The translations under genes and the position numbers were made by a program. This document shows positions 4,920 to 59,020 of a stretch of DNA of 64,000 nucleotides, in pieces. The notes beneath the pieces were generated by a model that had not been told where the DNA came from, searched no databases, and saw only the letters and a program-made list of their open reading frames with translations. Each line of letters begins with the position of its first letter. Position 1 is the stretch's first letter. The DNA is from Octopus sinensis (taxonomy: Eukaryota): positions 1-64,000 of the forward strand of contig NW_021833423.1 in assembly GCF_006345805.1 (NCBI RefSeq), in the 5' to 3' direction.

Positions 4920-6900
4920 GTGGTTATTCAGAATCCGGTTTCTAAGGAGGCTTTAATAACTGTTATGATTAGTAAGAGTAATCTCATCAGAGATAATTTT
5001 TAAATCTGAGCTACAAAATTCAATATACTTTTATGTCAGTTTAAGCTGCAGGAGGGAAACAAAATCAAAAGAAAAAGAGAGAAATTCATAAAAGAAAAGA
5101 AGAAAATAATTAAATTCATGTTCTGTAAATAGTTGTTGGAAATTTAGCCATTATAAATCACATTTAGTAGTATAGATAACATCACAACATACTTTACTCA
5201 GCAAAGCAGTGTTATCGAGTAACAGATCCTAAATTATCGTATGTTTAGTATGGTATTAAACATAAAGGAGATGGGTTGCCCACACTTAGGTGTATTACGA
5301 TACATACACGCACGTTTTAGCAAAGAACACTGAATAGAGCAATTTCATTTGTTGATGCTTGTACAAACATATACCGCTGTAATTAGGTAAATGCATATAT
5401 TACTTTTTTTTTACTTTTTCCTTGAATCTTATGGGAGTGAATTGAATTTTGTAGCTCATATTTTAAAAGATACCTCCTATGGGATGTTTCATAAGAATGA
5501 CAGATAATACAAGAATTATTGAAATAGCAGTAGGGATGAAATTTTGAAATATCACTGATATTGTAGCTTGCTCCGTTCACGCGTTATAACCTATTTTATG
5601 ATAAATGCAACAAAGTACACTGGTAAGGCAGGCATTTTATAAGTGACTTTAGGAGTTTTGCATACTAAATTATACAGCATCTGTGTGATTATAGTCTAGC
5701 GAAAGCAGGGTTTCCTAGCACGCGCATTTCATGTATACCTCTGATTTTGTATATAATTACAGCTCTTGATTCTCTGGGCTTTTAAGGTTTTTTTTTCCGT
5801 TCATAATCTTGCATTTTGGTAACCTTTAGATATTTTAATGATAAATTCATTTAATGCTGTATTCTGAAGCAGTTTTAATTTCTAGATTAGTAGCTTACCA
5901 GAAGCTGACTTTAGTCTTCCTTTTTTGCTGTTTCTAAAGTTTTAGAGTTGTTGGCTAAAATTTGTTTTCGCCATTCCTATACATCTTTTCCATGCCACTC
6001 CTTGATTTTGCTTTACAGAAGTGGCTTTTCCTCATAAATTACGGTTTCTCAGTTGCACGTTTTGTGCAGAGGGCGTTTACCTGCATTTCTGCATGAATAT
6101 GGAGTTTCAGCTATGTTGTCAGGTGAATATGCTATTACATTTTGTTATTCTTTTGTTTCACTCTTCTTTCAGATTGATCCGTTTTAAATGTTTTCTATGA
6201 TAGGACTGGGATTTTCTATAAGTCTTTTTGCCATAACAGATATCACATTTAATGAATATGGGTGCGTAATATATAATTGTAGGTCCCTTTCTTTCGTTTG
6301 TTCAAAGTCTAAGATGCTTATTTCTCTTTGAATTCAGTAGCTAATACGAGCGTTTTTATTGTAGGGAAAGTCTTATCGAATATTTCAGGAAAGACTGGAA
6401 ATCTGTTCATAAATATTTTTGATGAAGTTCTGAAAACATTCCTTAATTCATCTAAAGTTTAACCATTATTGCCTTCTTATTTCTGTTCCCTTATCTCTAT
6501 AAACGCCAAAGTCTATTGTTGCAAATTTCTTAAGTAAGTACATCTAAGTTGTATAGTTCGATAAACATTCCATATATCATAGAGTACGATCCTGTAGTTA
6601 CGTCAATATAATCTGTTGGTGTGATATTTTACTTAGGCAGTGCTGTTATATAGCATGTATAATTCTTTCTATAATGAAATAAGTTATTGTATGTTAGTTT
6701 TTAGGAAATATTATGTCATACGTAGTAGATTTTTTAACATGAAAATCAATGTCGAATTGAGTAAATCTACATCGTTGAACCAGCTAATGATATCCTTGGT
6801 GTTATTATCGAAACGTTAAGCAAGGCTTTTGTTATGGAATTCTCTCTTTGAAAACATTTAGCTTTTCGCTCGCGCTGATATGCTGATTTGGTCAAACGAA
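4920..6900 (-). mobile_element. Decayed Penelope-like retroelement (Neptune-type RT + GIY-YIG pseudogene)
   Basis: Colinear minus-strand motifs: NTKDIISWFN (6774-6803), DVTTGSY (6583-6604), FGVYRDKG (6483-6512; degenerate YRDDG), IIYYAP..SLNV, SCRNAGKRPLHKTCN*ETVIYE (CxC..CPL..C..VY linker), IGMAKTNFSQQL (GIY-YIG), SEVYMKC; decayed HHR at the 3' end. Confidence 0.75.
4952..4995 (-). ncRNA. Decayed minimal hammerhead ribozyme at PLE 3' end
   Basis: CUGAUGA-GAUUA/cucuuac/UAAUC-(AUAAC instead of GAAAC)-AGUU. Confidence 0.5.
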
Positions 6901-8404: not shown

Positions 8405-9140
8405 TTATAACAGTGGCAGGAGGGAACCTATTTGGACTCGAAGATTCCTGGGGAATAGCTGCAGACATCATTGAGAAGCGCAACAACTACCCAGAGTTCA
8501 TCACCAAAAATATCTTGAGATCAGACATCGTCTTATAGTCTGAACAAGATGCCAAAGAGATTCTCATTGAATTGTCAGTACCATACGAGAGCTGCATCAA
8601 AGAGCAGTACATATTTAAGAAGAGCAAATATGGTGAGCTGGCAAAGCAGCTAGAGAGCGAGGGTTACCATTGTACTATGAAACCAATTGAAGTTGGATCA
8701 CGAGGATTTGTGACCGCTTGCCGGTACTCAAACCGTCGGGTATCGAAGACTGCAGAACTTCCACAACCAAACACTTGTCTGATGTTGCTGGAAAGAGTTC
8801 AGTATCGATATGGGCAAAGAGAAATGATCAATGGACCAGTGGTTATTAATAGGAACTATAAGGAAAAAGAGAACTGGTTCCTTCGGTTGTCAGTGTGGCT
8901 TAGTGGTCTGAAACACAGACCTGGGAACACAAGATCACTAAAAGAATGAACCAGGTTCGAATTCCGCTGGAGATAGGATTTTGGTTTTGGAAAGCAGCAG
9001 AGTGACAAATATGAGTCATGACCTGAGTTGGCCCGGCTCCCGTAGGGTGTCAGGTATAAGGACCGAAACACTTGTCGTATGGGATTTCTTCCTCTAAGTT
9101 CTTCCTCTGAAGATCCTGCTGTGCGCCCGCGTAGCAGCGA
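8405..9140 (+). mobile_element. RLE-type non-LTR retrotransposon 3' fragment (HERO/R2-group)
   Basis: LRSDIVL*SE....LIELSVPYE....KKSKY.EL...L...G......IEVGSRGFV is a PD-(D/E)xK restriction-like endonuclease domain; followed by a structured 3' UTR. Confidence 0.8.
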
Positions 9141-10159: not shown

Positions 10160-10925
<766 letters not shown>

Positions 10926-15887: not shown

Positions 15888-16149
15888 GTTATATATATAT
15901 ACATATATATACCTACATACATGTATGTGTGAGTGTGTGTGTGTATTTGTATGTGTAAGTAAGATTCATTTGAATTAGTTACTTAATTTAAGGCACTTCG
16001 TTAGCTCGGAATAATATACACACACAATATTATGAAAATATCGACTTTTCTCACAGGCGTACCGACAGAATGATATTCCTGGAGTGCATGCAGACAATTT
16101 CACTCAGCTGAAGAGCTATTCAGACATGTATATTTTATCAAAAATACAG

Positions 16150-17050
16150 TTCATACAGGAGATACCGAGTATGCGTCGTAGGCTTCTGAGATGGAAGCTG
16201 TTCAGCTTTTTCACCTGACAGGCGTATGTGGCCCATGTCTCGCTGCCATACAACAGGATGCTGAGGACACAGGCATTGTACACAGCCATCTTTGTTTTCA
16301 CTGTCAACTTTGGGTTTGTCCACACTTTTGGTGTGAGGCGCGCGAGCGTAGTGGCTGCCTTCCCAATTCTGGTTTCAATTTCGGCATCGAGAGAGAGGTT
16401 GTCAGTGATGGTGGACCCAAGATAGGTAAATTGATGAACAACTTCAAGTTCGTAGTCATCGATGGTGACGGCTGGTTGTGCTGGTGTGCCTTGCGCCAGA
16501 ACGTTTGTCTTCTTCAGGCTGATGTCAGCCCAAAGTCCTTGCGGGACAACACCTTACTGGCTGAGGTCTGCCTATCTTGAGGCGGGCGGTAGCTGTCCAA
16601 TGAGACTCGAAGATCTCTTCTACCGTCGGAAGTAACATCTGGCACCGCACTCTACGCTAATTGAGTAAAGGCTTATAACCGGTATCTGCTGCTTCCCGTG
16701 TTGTGTCGACACCAAATAAATGGCGAAGCTGGAGTGTCCTCTCTAGGTGCAGGTGTGCATATTTAACGATGGCGTGGACGAATGTGAGCCTGGGCAATGT
16801 AGTATGGAGAAGAGATTGTTGCCGATGCAACTTTTCCCCTCTCTCCAACTCACTAACGAATCCAAAGGAACAGCGGGCTGCTACAGTTTGGTGCCAACGT
16901 GGTCACAGGAGCTGCCAGGACGAAGCTGAAGTCAACATCGAGCTGTCTTAGGGGCTCCGACTCTTAATTTTTCTTCGATTTTTACTGAAACCTTCCCTGT
17001 GATCAGGTATCCCGCAAGAGGATCCGATCATGGAACAGGTTGTACTGGAC
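16150..17050 (-). mobile_element. RTE-clade LINE, internally deleted (5' UTR-like part joined to RT C-terminal part)
   Basis: ORF 16116-16325 KLTVKTKMAVYNACVLSILLYGSETW...FHLRSLRRILGI; 16540-17050 is GC-richer non-coding sequence resembling an RTE 5' UTR. Confidence 0.85.
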
Positions 17051-26897: not shown

Positions 26898-27635
26898 TGA
26901 GGTCTTGTCAAAAAGTTCCCGGACTAGTTGTGTTCAATATTTACCTAAGTCTTAATACCATCTCCTTCGAAATAGTCACCTTGAGCAGCGATACACCGCT
27001 CCCAGCGTTCCTGCCACTTTTGGAATCCAGCATGGAAATCCGTAAACGAGTCGAAGATCTTCTGTGATCCGCTCTAGACCTCGACAATGGCGACGTTTCA
27101 GCTACATTTTCATCTTGAGGAAGATATAAAAGTCTGCAGGTGCTAAATCTTGCGAACAGAGCGGATTCGGAAGCGATGCCATATTGTTTTAGGGAAAAAA
27201 ACTCATGTGTGTGGAGAGCTCGGTGACAATGATGAATCCAATTTTTCACGTTCCTCAGATCCGGTCGCTTTCGCAGAATGTCCACCCTGAAATGCTTAAA
27301 AACGTCACAGTAGAACTCTCGATCGACGGTTTGGCCCTGGTGCGGGGGTTGAATTCCCGATGCACAATTCCGCGGATGTTGAAAAAGAAAAAAGAGATTA
27401 CAACTCTTACTTGAGCTGCGGGTCCGTTGCCTTCTTCGGTTGTTGAGATGAATGGTACTGCCATAGTGATGACTGCTGCTTCATTTCAGAGTCGTACCTG
27501 TAATACACCCAACGCTCTTAACCGGTGATGATTCTCGACACGAAGGATGGGTCAACAGCGGCACGGTGATGGAGATCTTGACAGATTTCAATGCAATGTT
27601 CTTTCTTCTCAGTGTTCCGCAGGCGGGGCAAAAAC

Positions 27636-33149: not shown

Positions 33150-33563
33150 AGGCGAGCTGGCAGAATCGTTAGCACGCCGGGCGAAATGCTTAGCGGTATT
33201 TCGCATGTCTTTACTTTCCGAGTTCAAATTCCGCCGAGGTCGACTTTGCCTTTCATCCTTTCGGGGTCGATTAAATAAGTACCAGTTACGCACTGAGGTC
33301 GATATAATCGACTTAACCTGTTTGTCTGTCCTTGTTTGTCCTCTCTGTGTTTAACCCCTTGTGGATAGTAAAGAAATAGGTATTTCGTCTGCGTTACGTT
33401 GTGAATTCAAATTCCGCCGAGGCCGACTTTGCCTTTCATCCTTTCGGGGTCGATAAATTAAGTACCAGTTACGAACTGGGGTCGGTGTAATCGACTTAAT
33501 ACCTATGTCTGTTCTTGTTTGTTCCCTCTGTGTTTGGCCCCTTGTGGGTAATAAAGAAATAGG
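33150..33563 (+). mobile_element. SINE family B dimer
   Basis: Two successive TTCAAATTCCGCCGAGG..GACTTTGCCTTTCATCCTTTCGGGGTCGAT..AAAGAAATAGG units. Confidence 0.9.
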
Positions 33564-33719
33564 TTTCTATCCTAGATCCAAGTCTCCTTCATTGGAATTA
33601 CAACAACAGGGTATGTATGTATCTATGTATGCATGTATATATGTATGTGCAGATTTGTGTATTTTATGTATGTATTCTCATGCATATAGTTGCATATCTA
33701 GACATGCTCATATATGCTC

Positions 33720-51711: not shown

Positions 51712-53950
51712 AGGCGGTGAGCTGGCAGAAACATTAGCGCACAGGAAGGAATGCTTAGCGGTATTTTCTTTGCCGCTACGTTCTGAGTTCAAATTCCGCC
51801 GAAGTCGACTTTGCCTTTCATCCTTTCGGGGTCGATTAAATAAGTACCAGTTACGCACTGGGGTCGATATAATCGACTTAATCCTTTTGTCTGTCCTTGT
51901 TTGTCCCCTCTGTGCGTAGCCCCTTGTGGACAGTAAAGAAATAGGTATTTCGCACGTCGCTACGTTCTGAATTCAAATTCCACTGAGGTTGACTTTGCAT
52001 TTCATCCTTTCGGGGTCGATAAATTAAGTACCACTAAAACGCTGGAGTCGATGTAATCGATTATCTCCCTCCCCAAAATTTCATGCCTTGTGCCTATAGT
52101 AAAATGAATTATTTCCATCTGCAGAATCGTTACCTTTCAGCATTTGTTCTAACTCTATAAGTTCTGAGTTCACATCCGTCCGAGGACAACTATACCTTTG
52201 TCTTTCCGAGAATCGATAAAACAAAACAGTTAAATACTGTGCTCGATTAAATCGACTAATAACTCCTTACAAAATTTCAAACCCTGTACCTAGAAAGAAT
52301 TAGAAAGATATAATTAAAATCCTTTTAAAAGCAGAAAAATTTGCCGGCAAATTTTTCTGTTTTTAATAGGATTTTATCTTTTATATATACTGTTCAGTAT
52401 TTACGTGTTGAAAAAAGATATCATTCTACTTGTTCTACAATACATTTCAACGCTTCAAAACAAATTTATGTTTGTTTGCATATGACGTCATCTAGAAAGA
52501 GTCATTTCCATCATTTACTTTTGGTATTATTGAGCTTTGTCGTTAAAGCTGACAGAATCGTTAGCACATCTGACAAAATGCTTAACGGCATTTCTTCCAG
52601 CTCTTTAAGATCTGAATTCAAATTCCACCAAAGTCGAATTTACCTTTTTATCTTTGCGGGGTCGATAAAAAAGTACCAATTGAGTAATAGGGTCGATGTA
52701 ATCGACTTTACCCAGTTATTTAAAGATTGCTGGCCTTATATTTAAAATTTGAACCCATTTAAGGCGGAGCACTGCGGCATTTTTCCTAGTCTTACGGTCT
52801 GAGTTCAAATACCGTCGAGATCGACTTTGCCTTTTATCCTTTCGAAATCGATAAAATATGTACAAGTTGAGCATTGGAGTCGATGTAATTGACTAACTAC
52901 TGCCCCAGATTCCAGGCTTTGTTGCTAAAGTAAAAATAATTATTGCGTTTCATAATTGATATTGTTACTTGTCGACTTTTGTTCTATTTTTCTGTTCCGA
53001 CCTTTTTTCACTGTTTCTCGTTCTTATTCATTCTTTTGACGTCGTTATTGCTGTTATCGTAATTAATCTTTCGTTGTTGTCGATGCTACTGACGTAACTG
53101 GCGTTGTAATTATTTCAATATATGGAGCTGTTAAGGCGGCGAGCTGGCAGAAACGTTAGCACACCGGGCGAAGTGCTTAGCGGTATTTCGTTTGCCGTAA
53201 CTTTCTGAGTTCAAATTCCGCCGAGGTTGACTTTGCTTTTCATCCTTTCGGGGTCGATAAATTAAGTACCAGTTACGCACTGGGGTCGATATAATCGACT
53301 TAATCCGTCTGCCAGTCCTTGTTTGTCTCCTCTGTGTTTAGCCCGTTGTAGGTAGTAAAGAAGTAGGTATTTCGTCTGCCGCTAAGTTCTGAGTTCAAAA
53401 TCCTCCGAGGTCGACTTTGCCTTTCATCCTTTCGGGGTCAATTAAATAAGTACCAGTTACGCACTGGGGTCGATATAATCGACTTAATCCGTTTGTTTGT
53501 CCTTGTTTGTCCCCTCTGTGTGTAGCCCCTTGTGGGCAGTAAAGAAATAAGAAACGTTAGTATGTCGGGCGAAATGCTTAGCGGTATTTCGTCTGTCTTT
53601 ACGTTCTGAGTTCAAATTCCGCCGAGGTTGATTTTGCCTTCCATACTTTCGGAGTGGCTAAATAAAGTACCAGTTGCATATCAGGGTCGATGTAATTGAG
53701 TGGCCCCCCTTCCCCCAAAATTTCGGGCTTGTACCTAGAGTAGAAAAGAATAAATAGCGCTGGTAGAATTGTTACCAGGCCGGAAAAATTGCTTAGCGGC
53801 ATTACGTTCTGAGTTCAAAATCTCCCGAAGTCGATTTTGTTTTTCATCCTTTCGTGGTTGATAAAATAAATGTCAGTTAAACACTACGATCCAGGTAATC
53901 GACTTACCGCTGTCCCCAAAATTGGTGGTCGTATACCAAATTTTGAACCA
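51712..53950 (+). mobile_element. Cluster of co-oriented SINE family B units
   Basis: About 9 TTCTGAGTTCAAAT..GACTTTGC..TCGGGGTCGAT units at 51712-52300, 52545-52945 and 53133-53950. Confidence 0.9.
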
Positions 53951-56943: not shown

Positions 56944-57118
56944 CTTTCGTTGTTGTCGATGCTACTGACGTAACTGGCGTTGTAATTATTTCAATATATG
57001 GAGCTGTTAAGGCGGCGAGCTGGCAGAAACGTTAGCACGCCGGGCGAAGTGCTTAGCGGTATTTCGTTTGCCGTAACGTTCTGAGTTCAAATTCCGCCTG
57101 GGTCGACTTGCTTTCATT
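56944..57118 (+). repeat. Local duplication of 53068-53245 (unique flank + SINE B head)
   Basis: CTTTCGTTGTTGTCGATGCTACTGACGTAACTGGCGTTGTAATTATTTCAATATATGGAGCTGTTAAGGCGGCGAGCTGG identical at both sites. Confidence 0.9.
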
Positions 57119-57285
57119 CTATATATTTTATCTTTGAAAATAACGACTCGTCCGAAACGTCGTTATCTCTTCTGTTTCTTTGCGGAAAATACATAAACTT
57201 TGTTAGTAATTTTATTTGTTTACTTTTTTTAAATTTACCTCCTGGACTAACTGACCAACGGAGACCAAAGCATGTCGAATGTATA

Positions 57286-57326
<41 letters not shown>

Positions 57327-57433
57327 GTGTGTATGTGCGTGTGTGTGTGTGCGTGTGTGTGTGTGTTAAATAAAATGAGACAACAAAGCCAAAGCAGTGT
57401 GAAAATTCTAGGACTTTTATAAAGAGAAAGATA

Positions 57434-57481
57434 GTCTTACAGCTGTTTCAGGGATATGAGGGATATCCCTTCATCAGAGAC
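57434..57481 (-). ncRNA. Minimal type-I hammerhead ribozyme, canonical core
   Basis: GUCU-CUGAUGA-AGGGAUAU cccuc AUAUCCCU-GAAAC-AGCU-GUA-AGAC: all core nucleotides intact, 8-bp stem II, palindromic helix III. Confidence 0.9.
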
Positions 57482-57819
57482 GATATGAGAGAGTTAAATA
57501 GAAGGAAATAGTTGAGTTCAATATAAGAAGTCATTTTGGAAAGGGAGGGATAAAGGAAGTATAAAGGAAAATATGAGAATAAAAATAAAAATGTATGTTG
57601 GATGTTACAGTTGCAGTTCCGTTATCCAAGGAATGTGCTGTGTAGAATAAGTCTACATACCATGGACAAGAAGTCTCTTTACTCACATACACGCTCATAC
57701 ACGACTCGCGTTAGCCTCCTCATGCTATTATCGAACCGGGAATCTAACAGCGGTCCTTCAGTAGCACTCTCATAGCCTTACTTGCTTTTGGGTCTTCTGG
57801 ATACCAAAACCTCTCATAC

Positions 57820-57850
<31 letters not shown>

Positions 57851-57883
57851 TGTATGTATGTATGTATGTATGTATGTATGTAT

Positions 57884-58165
57884 GCGTGTATTCGGCATCG
57901 TGCGTACAGCTGACCACGTCCGCCAGTGCTCTCAATCGCTGGCAGTCCCGTGCCAACCCCTCTGCATCCTCCAAGATGACATCCAGCCTCTGGAGATCTT
58001 CTTTAATCACGTCCAGCCATCCGGTGCGGTATCTGCCAAGGGCCTCTTCCAGCCCTCAGTTGCTGCATCGAACGAAAGCAAGGCCCTCTTAGGATGATCT
58101 GGCATAAAGAGGAGGGTGAGTTCGTACCAGCGCATGCTCTAAAGCCTCGACCAATTTGCGTCCTG
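57884..58165 (-). mobile_element. RTE-like LINE 3' tip ending in (CATA)n
   Basis: GRGPWQ..HRM.., IKEDLQRLDVILEDAEGLARDCQRLRAL resembles the RTE GRP..W...D...A.DR..WR end. Confidence 0.6.
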
Positions 58166-58455: not shown

Positions 58456-59020
58456 AAATTTTGATGGAGGGTGGGCGCAGTCGATTAGAACTATCCCAAT
58501 ACACAACTGGTACTTAATTTATCTACCCCCGAAAGGAGGAAAGGCAAAGTCGTCCTCGGCGGAATTTGAACTCAGAACCTTGTGCTAACGTTTCTGCCAG
58601 CTCGCACCCTTATGTCCTTTTCAATATTACTACAGTATAATTAAAGCTGACGAGCTGGCAGAATCGTCTGTTTTTACATTCTGAGTTCAAATTCTGCCGA
58701 GACTGACTATGCCTTTCATCCAATCGGGTTCGATAAAATAAGTACCAATCGAGTGAACCCCTCTCCCAAAATTGCTGGCCCTCTGCCAAAATTTGTAACC
58801 AATATTACAACGTCGTCATTAAAGGCAACGAGCTGGCAGAACTGTTAGCACGTCGGGCTTAATAGCATTCCGTCCGTCTTTACGTTCTGAGCTTAAATTC
58901 CGCCGAGGTCGATGTTGCCTTTCATCCTTTCGGGGGTCGATAAAATAAGTACCAGTCGAGTACTGAATACTGAAGCCAATTTTATCGGTTTACTCCATCC
59001 TTTGAAACTACTGGCCTTGA
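58455..59020. mobile_element. SINE family B cluster (one minus, two plus copies)
   Basis: GAGCTGGCAGAA heads at about 58603 (minus), 58652 and 58830. Confidence 0.8.

What the first reader, a model, noticed from the sequence alone, without database searches (positions are those of the whole stretch)
57434..57481. Perfect canonical minimal hammerhead ribozyme
Minus strand GUCU-CUGAUGA-[8-bp stem II]-GAAAC-AGCU-GUA-AGAC has every conserved core nucleotide. Helix III is the palindrome ACAGCUGU, typical of PLE-associated minimal HHRs thought to cleave as dimers. It lies in a non-coding element (about 57366-57740) abutting a (TG)n tract. It is the best candidate here for an active ribozyme.
Basis: partly seen in the sequence, partly recalled or inferred. 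Interest (0 to 1): 0.75.

Follow-up and report, generated by a model that had tools for sequence, protein, structure and literature searches.

The report
Hammerhead of decayed Hydra-type retrotransposon
The hammerhead (self-cutting RNA) motif is really there, but it is one of thousands of copies at the end of an old, broken Penelope-like jumping gene of the known Hydra type; it is predicted to cut only as a pair, and this lone truncated copy is likely inactive, so it is ordinary.

Summary
The type I hammerhead is present as described at 57481-57434 (minus); 0 of 100 shuffled windows give a comparable motif. It lies 67 nt from the 3' end of a 282-nt fragment of a dispersed repeat; its 3' half alone has 3,787 exact matches in the genome. 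Long copies run RT, C-terminal GIY-YIG, 3' UTR, then this hammerhead (L117, L121), with the RWK, DKT, FDITMG and CxCX5C motifs of Hydra-clade Penelope-like elements. It is a different family from the published Hydra-1_Obim. Two copies co-fold into the double hammerhead, while the monomer's active fold has P about 1e-4. "Perfect canonical" is overstated: G10.1-C11.1 is missing, and the family usually has a mismatch there. "Best candidate for activity" is unsupported: there is no same-strand partner on the contig, no RNA cover of the unique flanks, and 19 of 79 copies are as intact. The window copy is a two-armed truncated insertion, confirmed in an independent DNA run. The scan has noted such Hydra ends and U4C cores elsewhere in this genome. 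Verdict: real, ordinary, new member of a known kind.

The parts
57434..57481 (-). Type I hammerhead motif: helix I 4 bp, core CUGAUGA/GAAA, helix II 7 bp plus an A-U closing pair, palindromic helix III ACAGCUGU; predicted cut after GUA, between 57438 and 57437
57367..57648 (-). Arm A: 282-nt 5'-truncated 3' end (3' UTR / pLTR) of a Hydra-clade Penelope-like element, ending at fixed end site S1 (...CATTTTATTTA)
   Evidence: 85-91% identical to the paralogues that cover it
57652..57684 (+). About 32-nt piece that directly precedes arm A in intact copies, here flipped
   Evidence: junction spanned with 0 differences by a contig of independent DNA run X2
57685..57820 (+). Arm B: the about 140-nt 'tail' that follows S1 in intact copies and ends at fixed end site S2; it is the 5' leader of the next tandem unit and ends about 50 nt before the ORF's ATG
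   Evidence: L205, L226; L220 shows S1 and tail in the same place
57289..57366 (.). (TG)n microsatellite abutting S1
   Evidence: most copies end in (CA)n or (TA)n
57821..57884 (.). (TATG)n microsatellite abutting S2

Best explanation
This is the hammerhead motif in the 3' end repeat of an old, high-copy Hydra-clade Penelope-like retrotransposon family, and the window holds a truncated two-armed fragment of it that is likely inactive. Shown: motif, family, link to an RT + C-terminal GIY-YIG ORF, the tandem layout (ORF, 3' UTR, hammerhead, S1, 140-nt leader, S2, 50 nt, next ATG), and the two-armed structure of this copy. Predicted: one motif cannot fold the active core, but two pair through ACAGCUGU into a double hammerhead that would cut after GUA. 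Inferred, from what is known of PLEs: in the ancestral tandem transcript the motif cut slowly, as a dimer and/or with help from the element's protein, to give unit-length RNA, while the RT copied mostly uncut (or re-ligated) RNA from two start sites, S1 and S2, into nicks in TA/CA microsatellites. This gave the back-to-back arms. This copy has decayed neutrally since insertion and kept an intact core by chance.
For: 3,787 exact matches of the 3' half, control 0. RT-EN-UTR-hammerhead are collinear in L117 and L121, with the hammerhead 91% and 95% identical to the window's. GIY-YIG PF01541 at E 5e-4 and 9e-4, below the curated cut-off. RWK, DKT, FDITMG and CxCX5C motifs match the Hydra description in PMC8557442. 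The co-fold MFE of two 48-mers is the double hammerhead, -32.9 vs 2 x -13.5 kcal/mol, and the monomer active fold is 5 kcal/mol above its MFE, P about 1e-4. The majority base is shared between the U4 and C4 subfamilies at 41 of 48 hammerhead columns vs 42 of 86 and 43 of 70 flank columns (biased by anchoring on the motif). A young sister Hydra family keeps the architecture with other letters: helix I UUUUAG/CUAAAA, palindrome ACGAUCGU, GUA. 11 of 13 two-armed loci among 60 examined end at S1 on one arm and S2 on the other. 82 of 95 arms read across the cut site. Only 40 of 79 copies keep all core nucleotides. Literature: single min-HHRs showed no cleavage and dimers low activity (PMC4209133); the PAc HHR needs protein, is dispensable for insertion in vitro, and RT starts at two internal sites (PMC11167929).
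Against: No cleavage was tested. There is no compensatory base change within the family: 0 of 13 pairs in 30 copies, and covariation is below all shuffles, so the helices rest on conservation and on the sister family, not on covariation. With 10 nt of natural flank, a UCGUC/GAUGA hairpin is predicted to replace helix I even in the dimer. No single intact element of this subfamily was found; the Hydra motifs come from several decayed copies (the N-terminal ones matched the L111 query at 61-87% amino-acid identity). The unit is >=3.4 kb, longer than the 'generally <3 kb' of Hydra. 5' ends do not pile up at the cut site (4 of 95 within 3 nt, about 1.75 expected, P about 0.1), so in vivo cutting left no clear trace. 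RNA absence rests on contigs of three guessed RNA runs and is weak.
Confidence: 0.85

Rival explanations
1. The window copy is itself an active ribozyme that cuts a host or local transcript, as a monomer or by pairing in trans with transcripts of other copies.
For: All core nucleotides and helices are intact. Family-like sequence is present at low level in guessed RNA runs. Thousands of copies share the same palindrome, so trans partners could exist.
Against: Monomer active fold P about 1e-4. No same-strand partner on the contig. No RNA cover over the unique flanks. No host gene was evident among window ORFs >=130 aa (read by eye). 19 of 79 copies are equally intact.
Confidence: 0.06
2. It is a non-autonomous retrozyme or SINE-like element: a short non-coding hammerhead unit that spreads on its own as circular RNA.
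For: The local copy is short and non-coding. Most sampled copies are under 500 nt. One direct pair 295 nt apart exists (L139/L140).
Against: 5' ends are scattered from -29 to -823 with no fixed unit start. Homology runs continuously into an RT-EN ORF. 26 of 30 pattern-selected loci have no same-strand second motif within 1.5 kb. The 295-nt pair is separated by microsatellite and looks like a local duplication.
Confidence: 0.03
3. In this family the motif no longer needed to cut; it was kept mainly as an RNA pairing or protein-binding signal for the retrotransposon.
For: A U4C core is commoner than U4 among exact 5'-half matches (1,542 vs 1,039). Positions 10.1/11.1 are mismatched in most copies. 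82 of 95 arms read through the cut site. PAc HHR mutants insert normally in vitro (PMC11167929).
Against: The other catalytic positions stay at 0.91-1.00 in the C4 group. A natural U4C viroid hammerhead keeps enough activity in vivo (PMC3088659). The sister family keeps a canonical core.
Confidence: 0.15
4. Chance match or assembly artefact.
For: No Rfam hit. The contig is small (79 kb).
Against: 0 of 100 shuffles. Thousands of copies. An independent run spans both junctions with 0 differences.
Confidence: 0.01

Closest known systems
Hydra clade of C-terminal-EN Penelope-like elements, incl. Hydra-1_Obim of Octopus bimaculoides (Craig et al. 2021, PMC8557442; read: abstract, passages, sections 11 and 12, rows of Files S1/S2 and sequence/alignment passages of the supplement)
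   Same: RT then C-terminal GIY-YIG; RWK, DKT, divergent RT4(B), CxCX5C linker; insertion at TA/CA microsatellites; 3' sense hammerhead with palindromic or near-palindromic helix III; an extra base on both sides at the base of helix II, as in Hydra-1_aJap, Hydra-2_aJap and Hydra-1_cRog; inverted 5'-truncated copy plus tail.
   Different: A different family: four motifs from it have 0 hits in the supplement, and the Hydra-1_Obim hammerhead has other helices. Unit >=3.4 kb with an about 1.1-kb 3' UTR; tail about 140 nt rather than 30-40; long Asn-rich insert before the linker; large U4C subfamily.
Metazoan PLE minimal hammerheads (Cervera and De la Pena 2014, PMC4209133; read parts 1-2 of 4)
   Same: Type I, helix I 4 bp, helix II 7-8 bp, palindromic 15.2-16.2 and loop 3, mostly solitary truncated copies, predicted dimer.
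   Different: Has a 2-bp helix III with a 4-nt loop (their 'small palindromic helix III' variant) rather than none. Lacks G10.1-C11.1 next to G12: the first G-C pair lies one step out, behind a 1x1 mismatch or A-U.
PAc (Poseidon) of Anolis (PMC11167929; read passages and part 2 of the main text)
   Same: Two fixed insertion ends flanking a 'tail', next to AC-rich sequence; hammerhead upstream of both ends; uncut RNA as the main template.
   Different: Other PLE clade. In PAc the hammerhead overlaps the ORF start; here it lies about 260 nt upstream of the next ATG, and the tail is non-coding leader.

Membership tests
Type I hammerhead ribozyme | Core C3 U4 G5 A6 N7 G8 A9, G12 A13 A14, A15.1-U16.1, H17 between three helices | tested here: met
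Type I hammerhead ribozyme | Match to an Rfam hammerhead model | tested here: not met
   No hit at gathering score or E<=10; a library limit for short PLE motifs is the likely reason (inference)
Type I hammerhead ribozyme | Compensatory changes support the helices | tested here: inconclusive
   0 of 13 pairs within 30 copies; the sister family shows different helix I and palindrome sequences with the same pairing (one comparison)
Type I hammerhead ribozyme | Self-cleavage | not testable with these tools
   folding predictions only
PLE minimal hammerhead (Cervera 2014) | Helix I 4-5 bp, helix II 7-8 bp | tested here: met
PLE minimal hammerhead (Cervera 2014) | Palindromic 15.2-16.2 / loop 3 allowing a dimer | tested here: met
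   ACAGCUGU duplex -11.1 kcal/mol; dimer MFE is the double hammerhead
PLE minimal hammerhead (Cervera 2014) | G10.1-C11.1 pair with one extra base 5' of it | tested here: not met
   A-U in the window; A.A, U.U, A.G in most copies. So it works like a min-HHR but departs from that consensus; it fits published Hydra hammerheads
Hydra-clade PLE | RT followed by C-terminal GIY-YIG EN, linked to this hammerhead | tested here: met
   L117, L121, L062; EN to hammerhead also in L072
Hydra-clade PLE | N-terminal RWK motif | tested here: met
   RRMRWK or QRMRWK in L206, L207, L209, L211, L212, L226; L226 has the hammerhead-downstream piece and tail upstream of its ATG
Hydra-clade PLE | DKG changed to DKT | tested here: met
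   FSDKTENMY in L111; FSDKTGN in L210, L217
Hydra-clade PLE | CxCX5C linker; CxxC and CxH around conserved E and N of the EN | tested here: met
   CNCRPGTTC / CKLCLKEA / LLNK..TCNH in L118, similar in L061 and L114
Hydra-clade PLE | CCHH motif absent from the EN | tested here: inconclusive
   judged by eye only, no reference alignment
Hydra-clade PLE | Insertion into (TA)n | tested here: met
   ends abut (TA)n or (CA)n in most of 30 loci
Hydra-clade PLE | Generally under 3 kb (descriptive in the paper, not diagnostic) | tested here: not met
   ORF piece to S1 spans about 3.4 kb in L117
Hydra-clade PLE | RT groups with Hydra in a phylogeny | not tested
   published consensi were not available as tool sequences; compared by eye alignments
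Naiad/Chlamys PLE | N-terminal GIY-YIG, no canonical hammerhead | tested here: not met
   EN is C-terminal and a canonical hammerhead is present
Non-LTR retrozyme | Short non-coding monomer with fixed ends, in tandem | tested here: not met
   scattered 5' ends and continuity with the ORF

The most novel reading that the evidence does not exclude
The palindromic helix III is kept mainly as an RNA pairing signal that brings templates together for the two-armed insertion, with cutting secondary (U4C and a mismatched 10.1/11.1 tolerated in over 1,500 copies). The window copy, whose three pieces cover the element's 3' end exactly once, records one uncut RNA primed at both S1 and S2, with the S2-primed RT skipping the stretch already copied from S1: twin priming as the source of PLE inverted repeats and tails.
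Probability: 0.12. Interest if true: 0.6.

Novelty: new member of a known kind. Interest (0 to 1): 0.17.

Why it matters
As a single motif it matters little: hammerheads in PLE end repeats are expected, and Hydra-clade hammerheads are published, including one from an octopus. The modest value is at family level: an apparently undescribed Hydra family with thousands of hammerhead copies, natural U4 versus U4C and 10.1/11.1 variants, and many two-armed insertions. These give ready material for the open question of what PLE hammerheads do and how the inverted repeat and tail arise. A young sister family with identical hammerhead copies and long open ORFs would be the better test subject.

Tried and rejected
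Rfam: no hammerhead hit at either threshold. Pfam: no RT family hit for the Hydra RT pieces; GIY-YIG only below the curated cut-off in 3 of 8 pieces, and none for the 6 proteins, including the long open ORF of the sister family. Covariation within the family: none. Pile-up of 5' truncations at the cut site as a trace of in vivo cleavage: 4 of 95, not significant. Expression: the run search found no RNA run holding more than 5% of the words; three guessed RNA runs have no contigs over the unique flanks, which shows no presence but does not prove absence. Assembly artefact: rejected. Naiad and retrozyme readings: rejected. Identity with Hydra-1_Obim: rejected. The Lunse et al. 2017 paper on dimer cleavage was not held and is cited only through the review PMC6765202 (passages). 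Literature searches found no description of this family's hammerhead or of twin priming in PLEs. The O. vulgaris repeat paper PMC13282606 (passages) mentions neither hammerhead nor Hydra. Repbase and Dfam could not be searched, so the family may be catalogued there. Script ended in an error after its helix II counts; one search was too noisy and was redone. Earlier-findings look-ups by sequence and by nearby place returned nothing.

Full report
Observation. The minus strand at 57481-57434 reads GUCU-CUGAUGA-AGGGAUAU-CCCUC-AUAUCCCU-GAAAC-AGCU-GUA-AGAC. An exhaustive scan of both strands finds this as the only canonical type I hammerhead pattern in the 64 kb. In 100 dinucleotide shuffles loose patterns occur 0.35 per window, and none has helices as long. 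Rfam gives no hammerhead match at gathering score or at E<=10. The window is microsatellite-rich. The closest named protein to a family ORF piece is 81% identical and comes from Octopus bimaculoides, where it is labelled a GATA zinc-finger-like protein, so the genome is likely an octopus (inference).

What surrounds it. 57367-57648 is one copy of a dispersed repeat: 2,482 first-look candidates, best copies 85-91% identical. The 3' half of the motif has 3,787 exact matches, control 0; the exact 48-mer has 2. On the hammerhead strand, copies end 67 nt after the motif at a fixed site S1 followed by (CA)n or (TA)n, or run on through an about 140-nt tail to a second fixed site S2. 5' ends are scattered from -29 to -823 relative to S1 in 95 arms chosen by a pattern downstream of the motif. 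Walking upstream reaches a decayed ORF. In L117 and L121 RT, GIY-YIG endonuclease, 3' UTR and a hammerhead 91% and 95% identical to the window's are collinear, and L121 and L072 also carry an inverted truncated copy at their 5' side. In L205 and L226 the tail lies directly upstream of an ORF start, ending about 50 nt before the ATG, and L220 shows S1 and tail in the same place. The parent layout is therefore the PLE partial tandem: ORF, 3' UTR, hammerhead, S1, leader, S2, next ORF.

Clade. The ORF pieces show RRMRWK, FSDKT, FDITMGSSDSAQV, GLYRDD, a CNCRPGTTC linker, and CKLC and TCNH around the endonuclease E and N. These are the traits given for the Hydra clade in PMC8557442 (section 11) and match its alignments by eye. 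Pfam GIY-YIG hits are weak (E 5e-4 to 0.02, below cut-off, 3 of 8 pieces). The motifs come from several decayed copies, not one intact element; most close matches carry stops. Absence of CCHH was judged by eye only, no tree was built, and the unit is longer (>=3.4 kb) than the 'generally <3 kb' of the paper. The family is not Hydra-1_Obim: four motifs have 0 hits in the supplement and its hammerhead differs.

This copy. It has three pieces: arm A (282 nt, minus, ending at S1), a flipped piece of about 32 nt that normally precedes arm A, and arm B (the tail, plus, ending at S2). Aligned to intact copies they cover the element's 3' end once, with no real gap or duplication (7 of 8 reference copies place the middle piece upstream of arm A). 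A contig from an independent DNA run spans 57604-57809 with 0 differences, so the junctions are real. Of 60 loci examined, 13 were two-armed and 11 of these, the window included, end at S1 and S2 (loci not an unbiased sample). This matches the inverted-repeat-plus-tail structure of PLEs (PMC8557442) and the two RT start sites found for PAc (PMC11167929). In many other copies both arms duplicate the same stretch, so the once-only tiling is not the rule; L303 (arm B starting at +4) and L233 (flipped continuation) show similar features. Twin priming on one RNA is an inference from few cases.

The ribozyme. Folding: the monomer's active structure is -8.5 against an MFE of -13.5 kcal/mol, P about 1e-4; two copies co-fold into exactly the double hammerhead, -32.9 kcal/mol, through the 8-bp ACAGCUGU duplex. 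With 10 nt of flank a UCGUC/GAUGA hairpin is predicted to displace helix I even in the dimer, and in the 282-nt arm helix I has P 0.02. This fits the low, dimer- or protein-dependent activity reported for PLE hammerheads (PMC4209133 parts 1-2; PMC11167929; review PMC6765202). Conservation: core and helices I and III are 0.84-1.00 conserved in 92 U4 copies, but 10.1/11.1 is A.A 31, U.U 24, A-U 20, A.G 7 (copies anchored on the motif). So helix II is 7 bp behind a free position, the window's A-U is a minority state, and the G10.1-C11.1 of the min-HHR consensus is absent. Published Hydra hammerheads have the same extra base on both sides. There is no compensatory change within the family (0 of 13 pairs, 30 copies). 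The hammerhead is more alike between subfamilies than its flanks (41 of 48 vs 42 of 86 and 43 of 70 columns, biased by anchoring), and DNA contig depth at >=93% likeness peaks over it (not a copy number). A young sister Hydra family (46% amino-acid identity; long open ORFs) keeps the architecture with a different helix I and palindrome. A large subfamily has U4C: 1,542 exact 5'-half matches against 1,039 for U4. U4C lowers activity in vitro but is tolerated in a viroid (PMC3088659, passages).

Is this copy active? Probably not. It has no same-strand partner on its 79-kb contig; the only relative is a U4C copy with a broken palindrome on the other strand at 10623-10674. Three guessed RNA runs have no contigs over the unique flanks and only diverged family pieces over the element (weak evidence). 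Among 95 arms chosen without regard to the hammerhead, 79 cover it, 40 keep all core nucleotides and 19 also keep helices and palindrome. That looks like neutral decay, and it makes the window copy one of many intact by chance. 82 of 95 arms read across the cut site, and only 4 start within 3 nt of it (about 1.75 expected, P about 0.1), so the templates were mostly uncut or re-ligated RNA, as for PAc.

Verdict. Earlier notes of this scan in the same genome reached like readings on other DNA (truncated Hydra ends, U4C cores, paired ends, long-armed sister hammerheads). They are unchecked AI notes; one pointed me to PMC11167929, and the overlapping claims were tested here on this family. bioRxiv supplements were not available and could hold further Hydra families. 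New member of a known kind; interest 0.17.

Noticed in passing
window 10623-10674 (+), within about 10590-10745: Second, short copy of the same superfamily with a U4C core (CCGAUGA), a longer helix II and a broken palindrome (AACU), between TA tracts.
   Followed up: partly
G000 genome-wide; L131-L183: U4C hammerheads outnumber U4 ones among exact 5'-half matches (1,542 vs 1,039) and are linked to ORF-bearing copies (L114, L118).
   Followed up: partly
L124-L129 (e.g. L124 about 5564-5654, +): Young sister Hydra family with open ORFs of over 800 codons, tandem units about 4.3 kb apart, and near-identical hammerheads with a 68-nt helix II region and palindrome ACGAUCGU; a better candidate for activity.
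   Followed up: partly
L129 about 1084 (+) and the opposite strand: A third hammerhead type with a long helix II region and palindrome ACGUACGU, cut site GUC.
   Followed up: no
L137, L150, L154: Subfamily with a 29-nt helix II region and different flanks but the same GAAACAGCUGUAAGAC 3' half.
   Followed up: no
P0003: An O. bimaculoides protein labelled 'GATA zinc finger domain-containing protein 14-like' is 81% identical to this family's RT-thumb region; probably a mis-annotated PLE ORF.
   Followed up: partly
L061 3971-5317, L072 3214-5600: Other non-LTR retrotransposon ORF pieces are inserted inside the Hydra ORF at a similar place (the Asn-rich, (AAT)n-containing linker) in two loci; possible targeting of that microsatellite.
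   Followed up: no
window 57007-57120, 58480-58750, 33223-33564, 53182-53546: Copies of a very abundant tRNA-like SINE (label recalled, not tested), with tandem 183-184-nt units at two places; very high depth in DNA and guessed RNA contigs.
   Followed up: no
window 57894-58100: Another multi-copy repeat directly beyond the (TATG)n tract (high summed depth); not identified.
   Followed up: no
window 16116-16553 (-), 26941-27480 (-), 8539-8949 (+): ORF fragments resembling an RTE-type LINE, a mariner-type transposase and a LINE C-terminus (by eye, recalled motifs).
   Followed up: no
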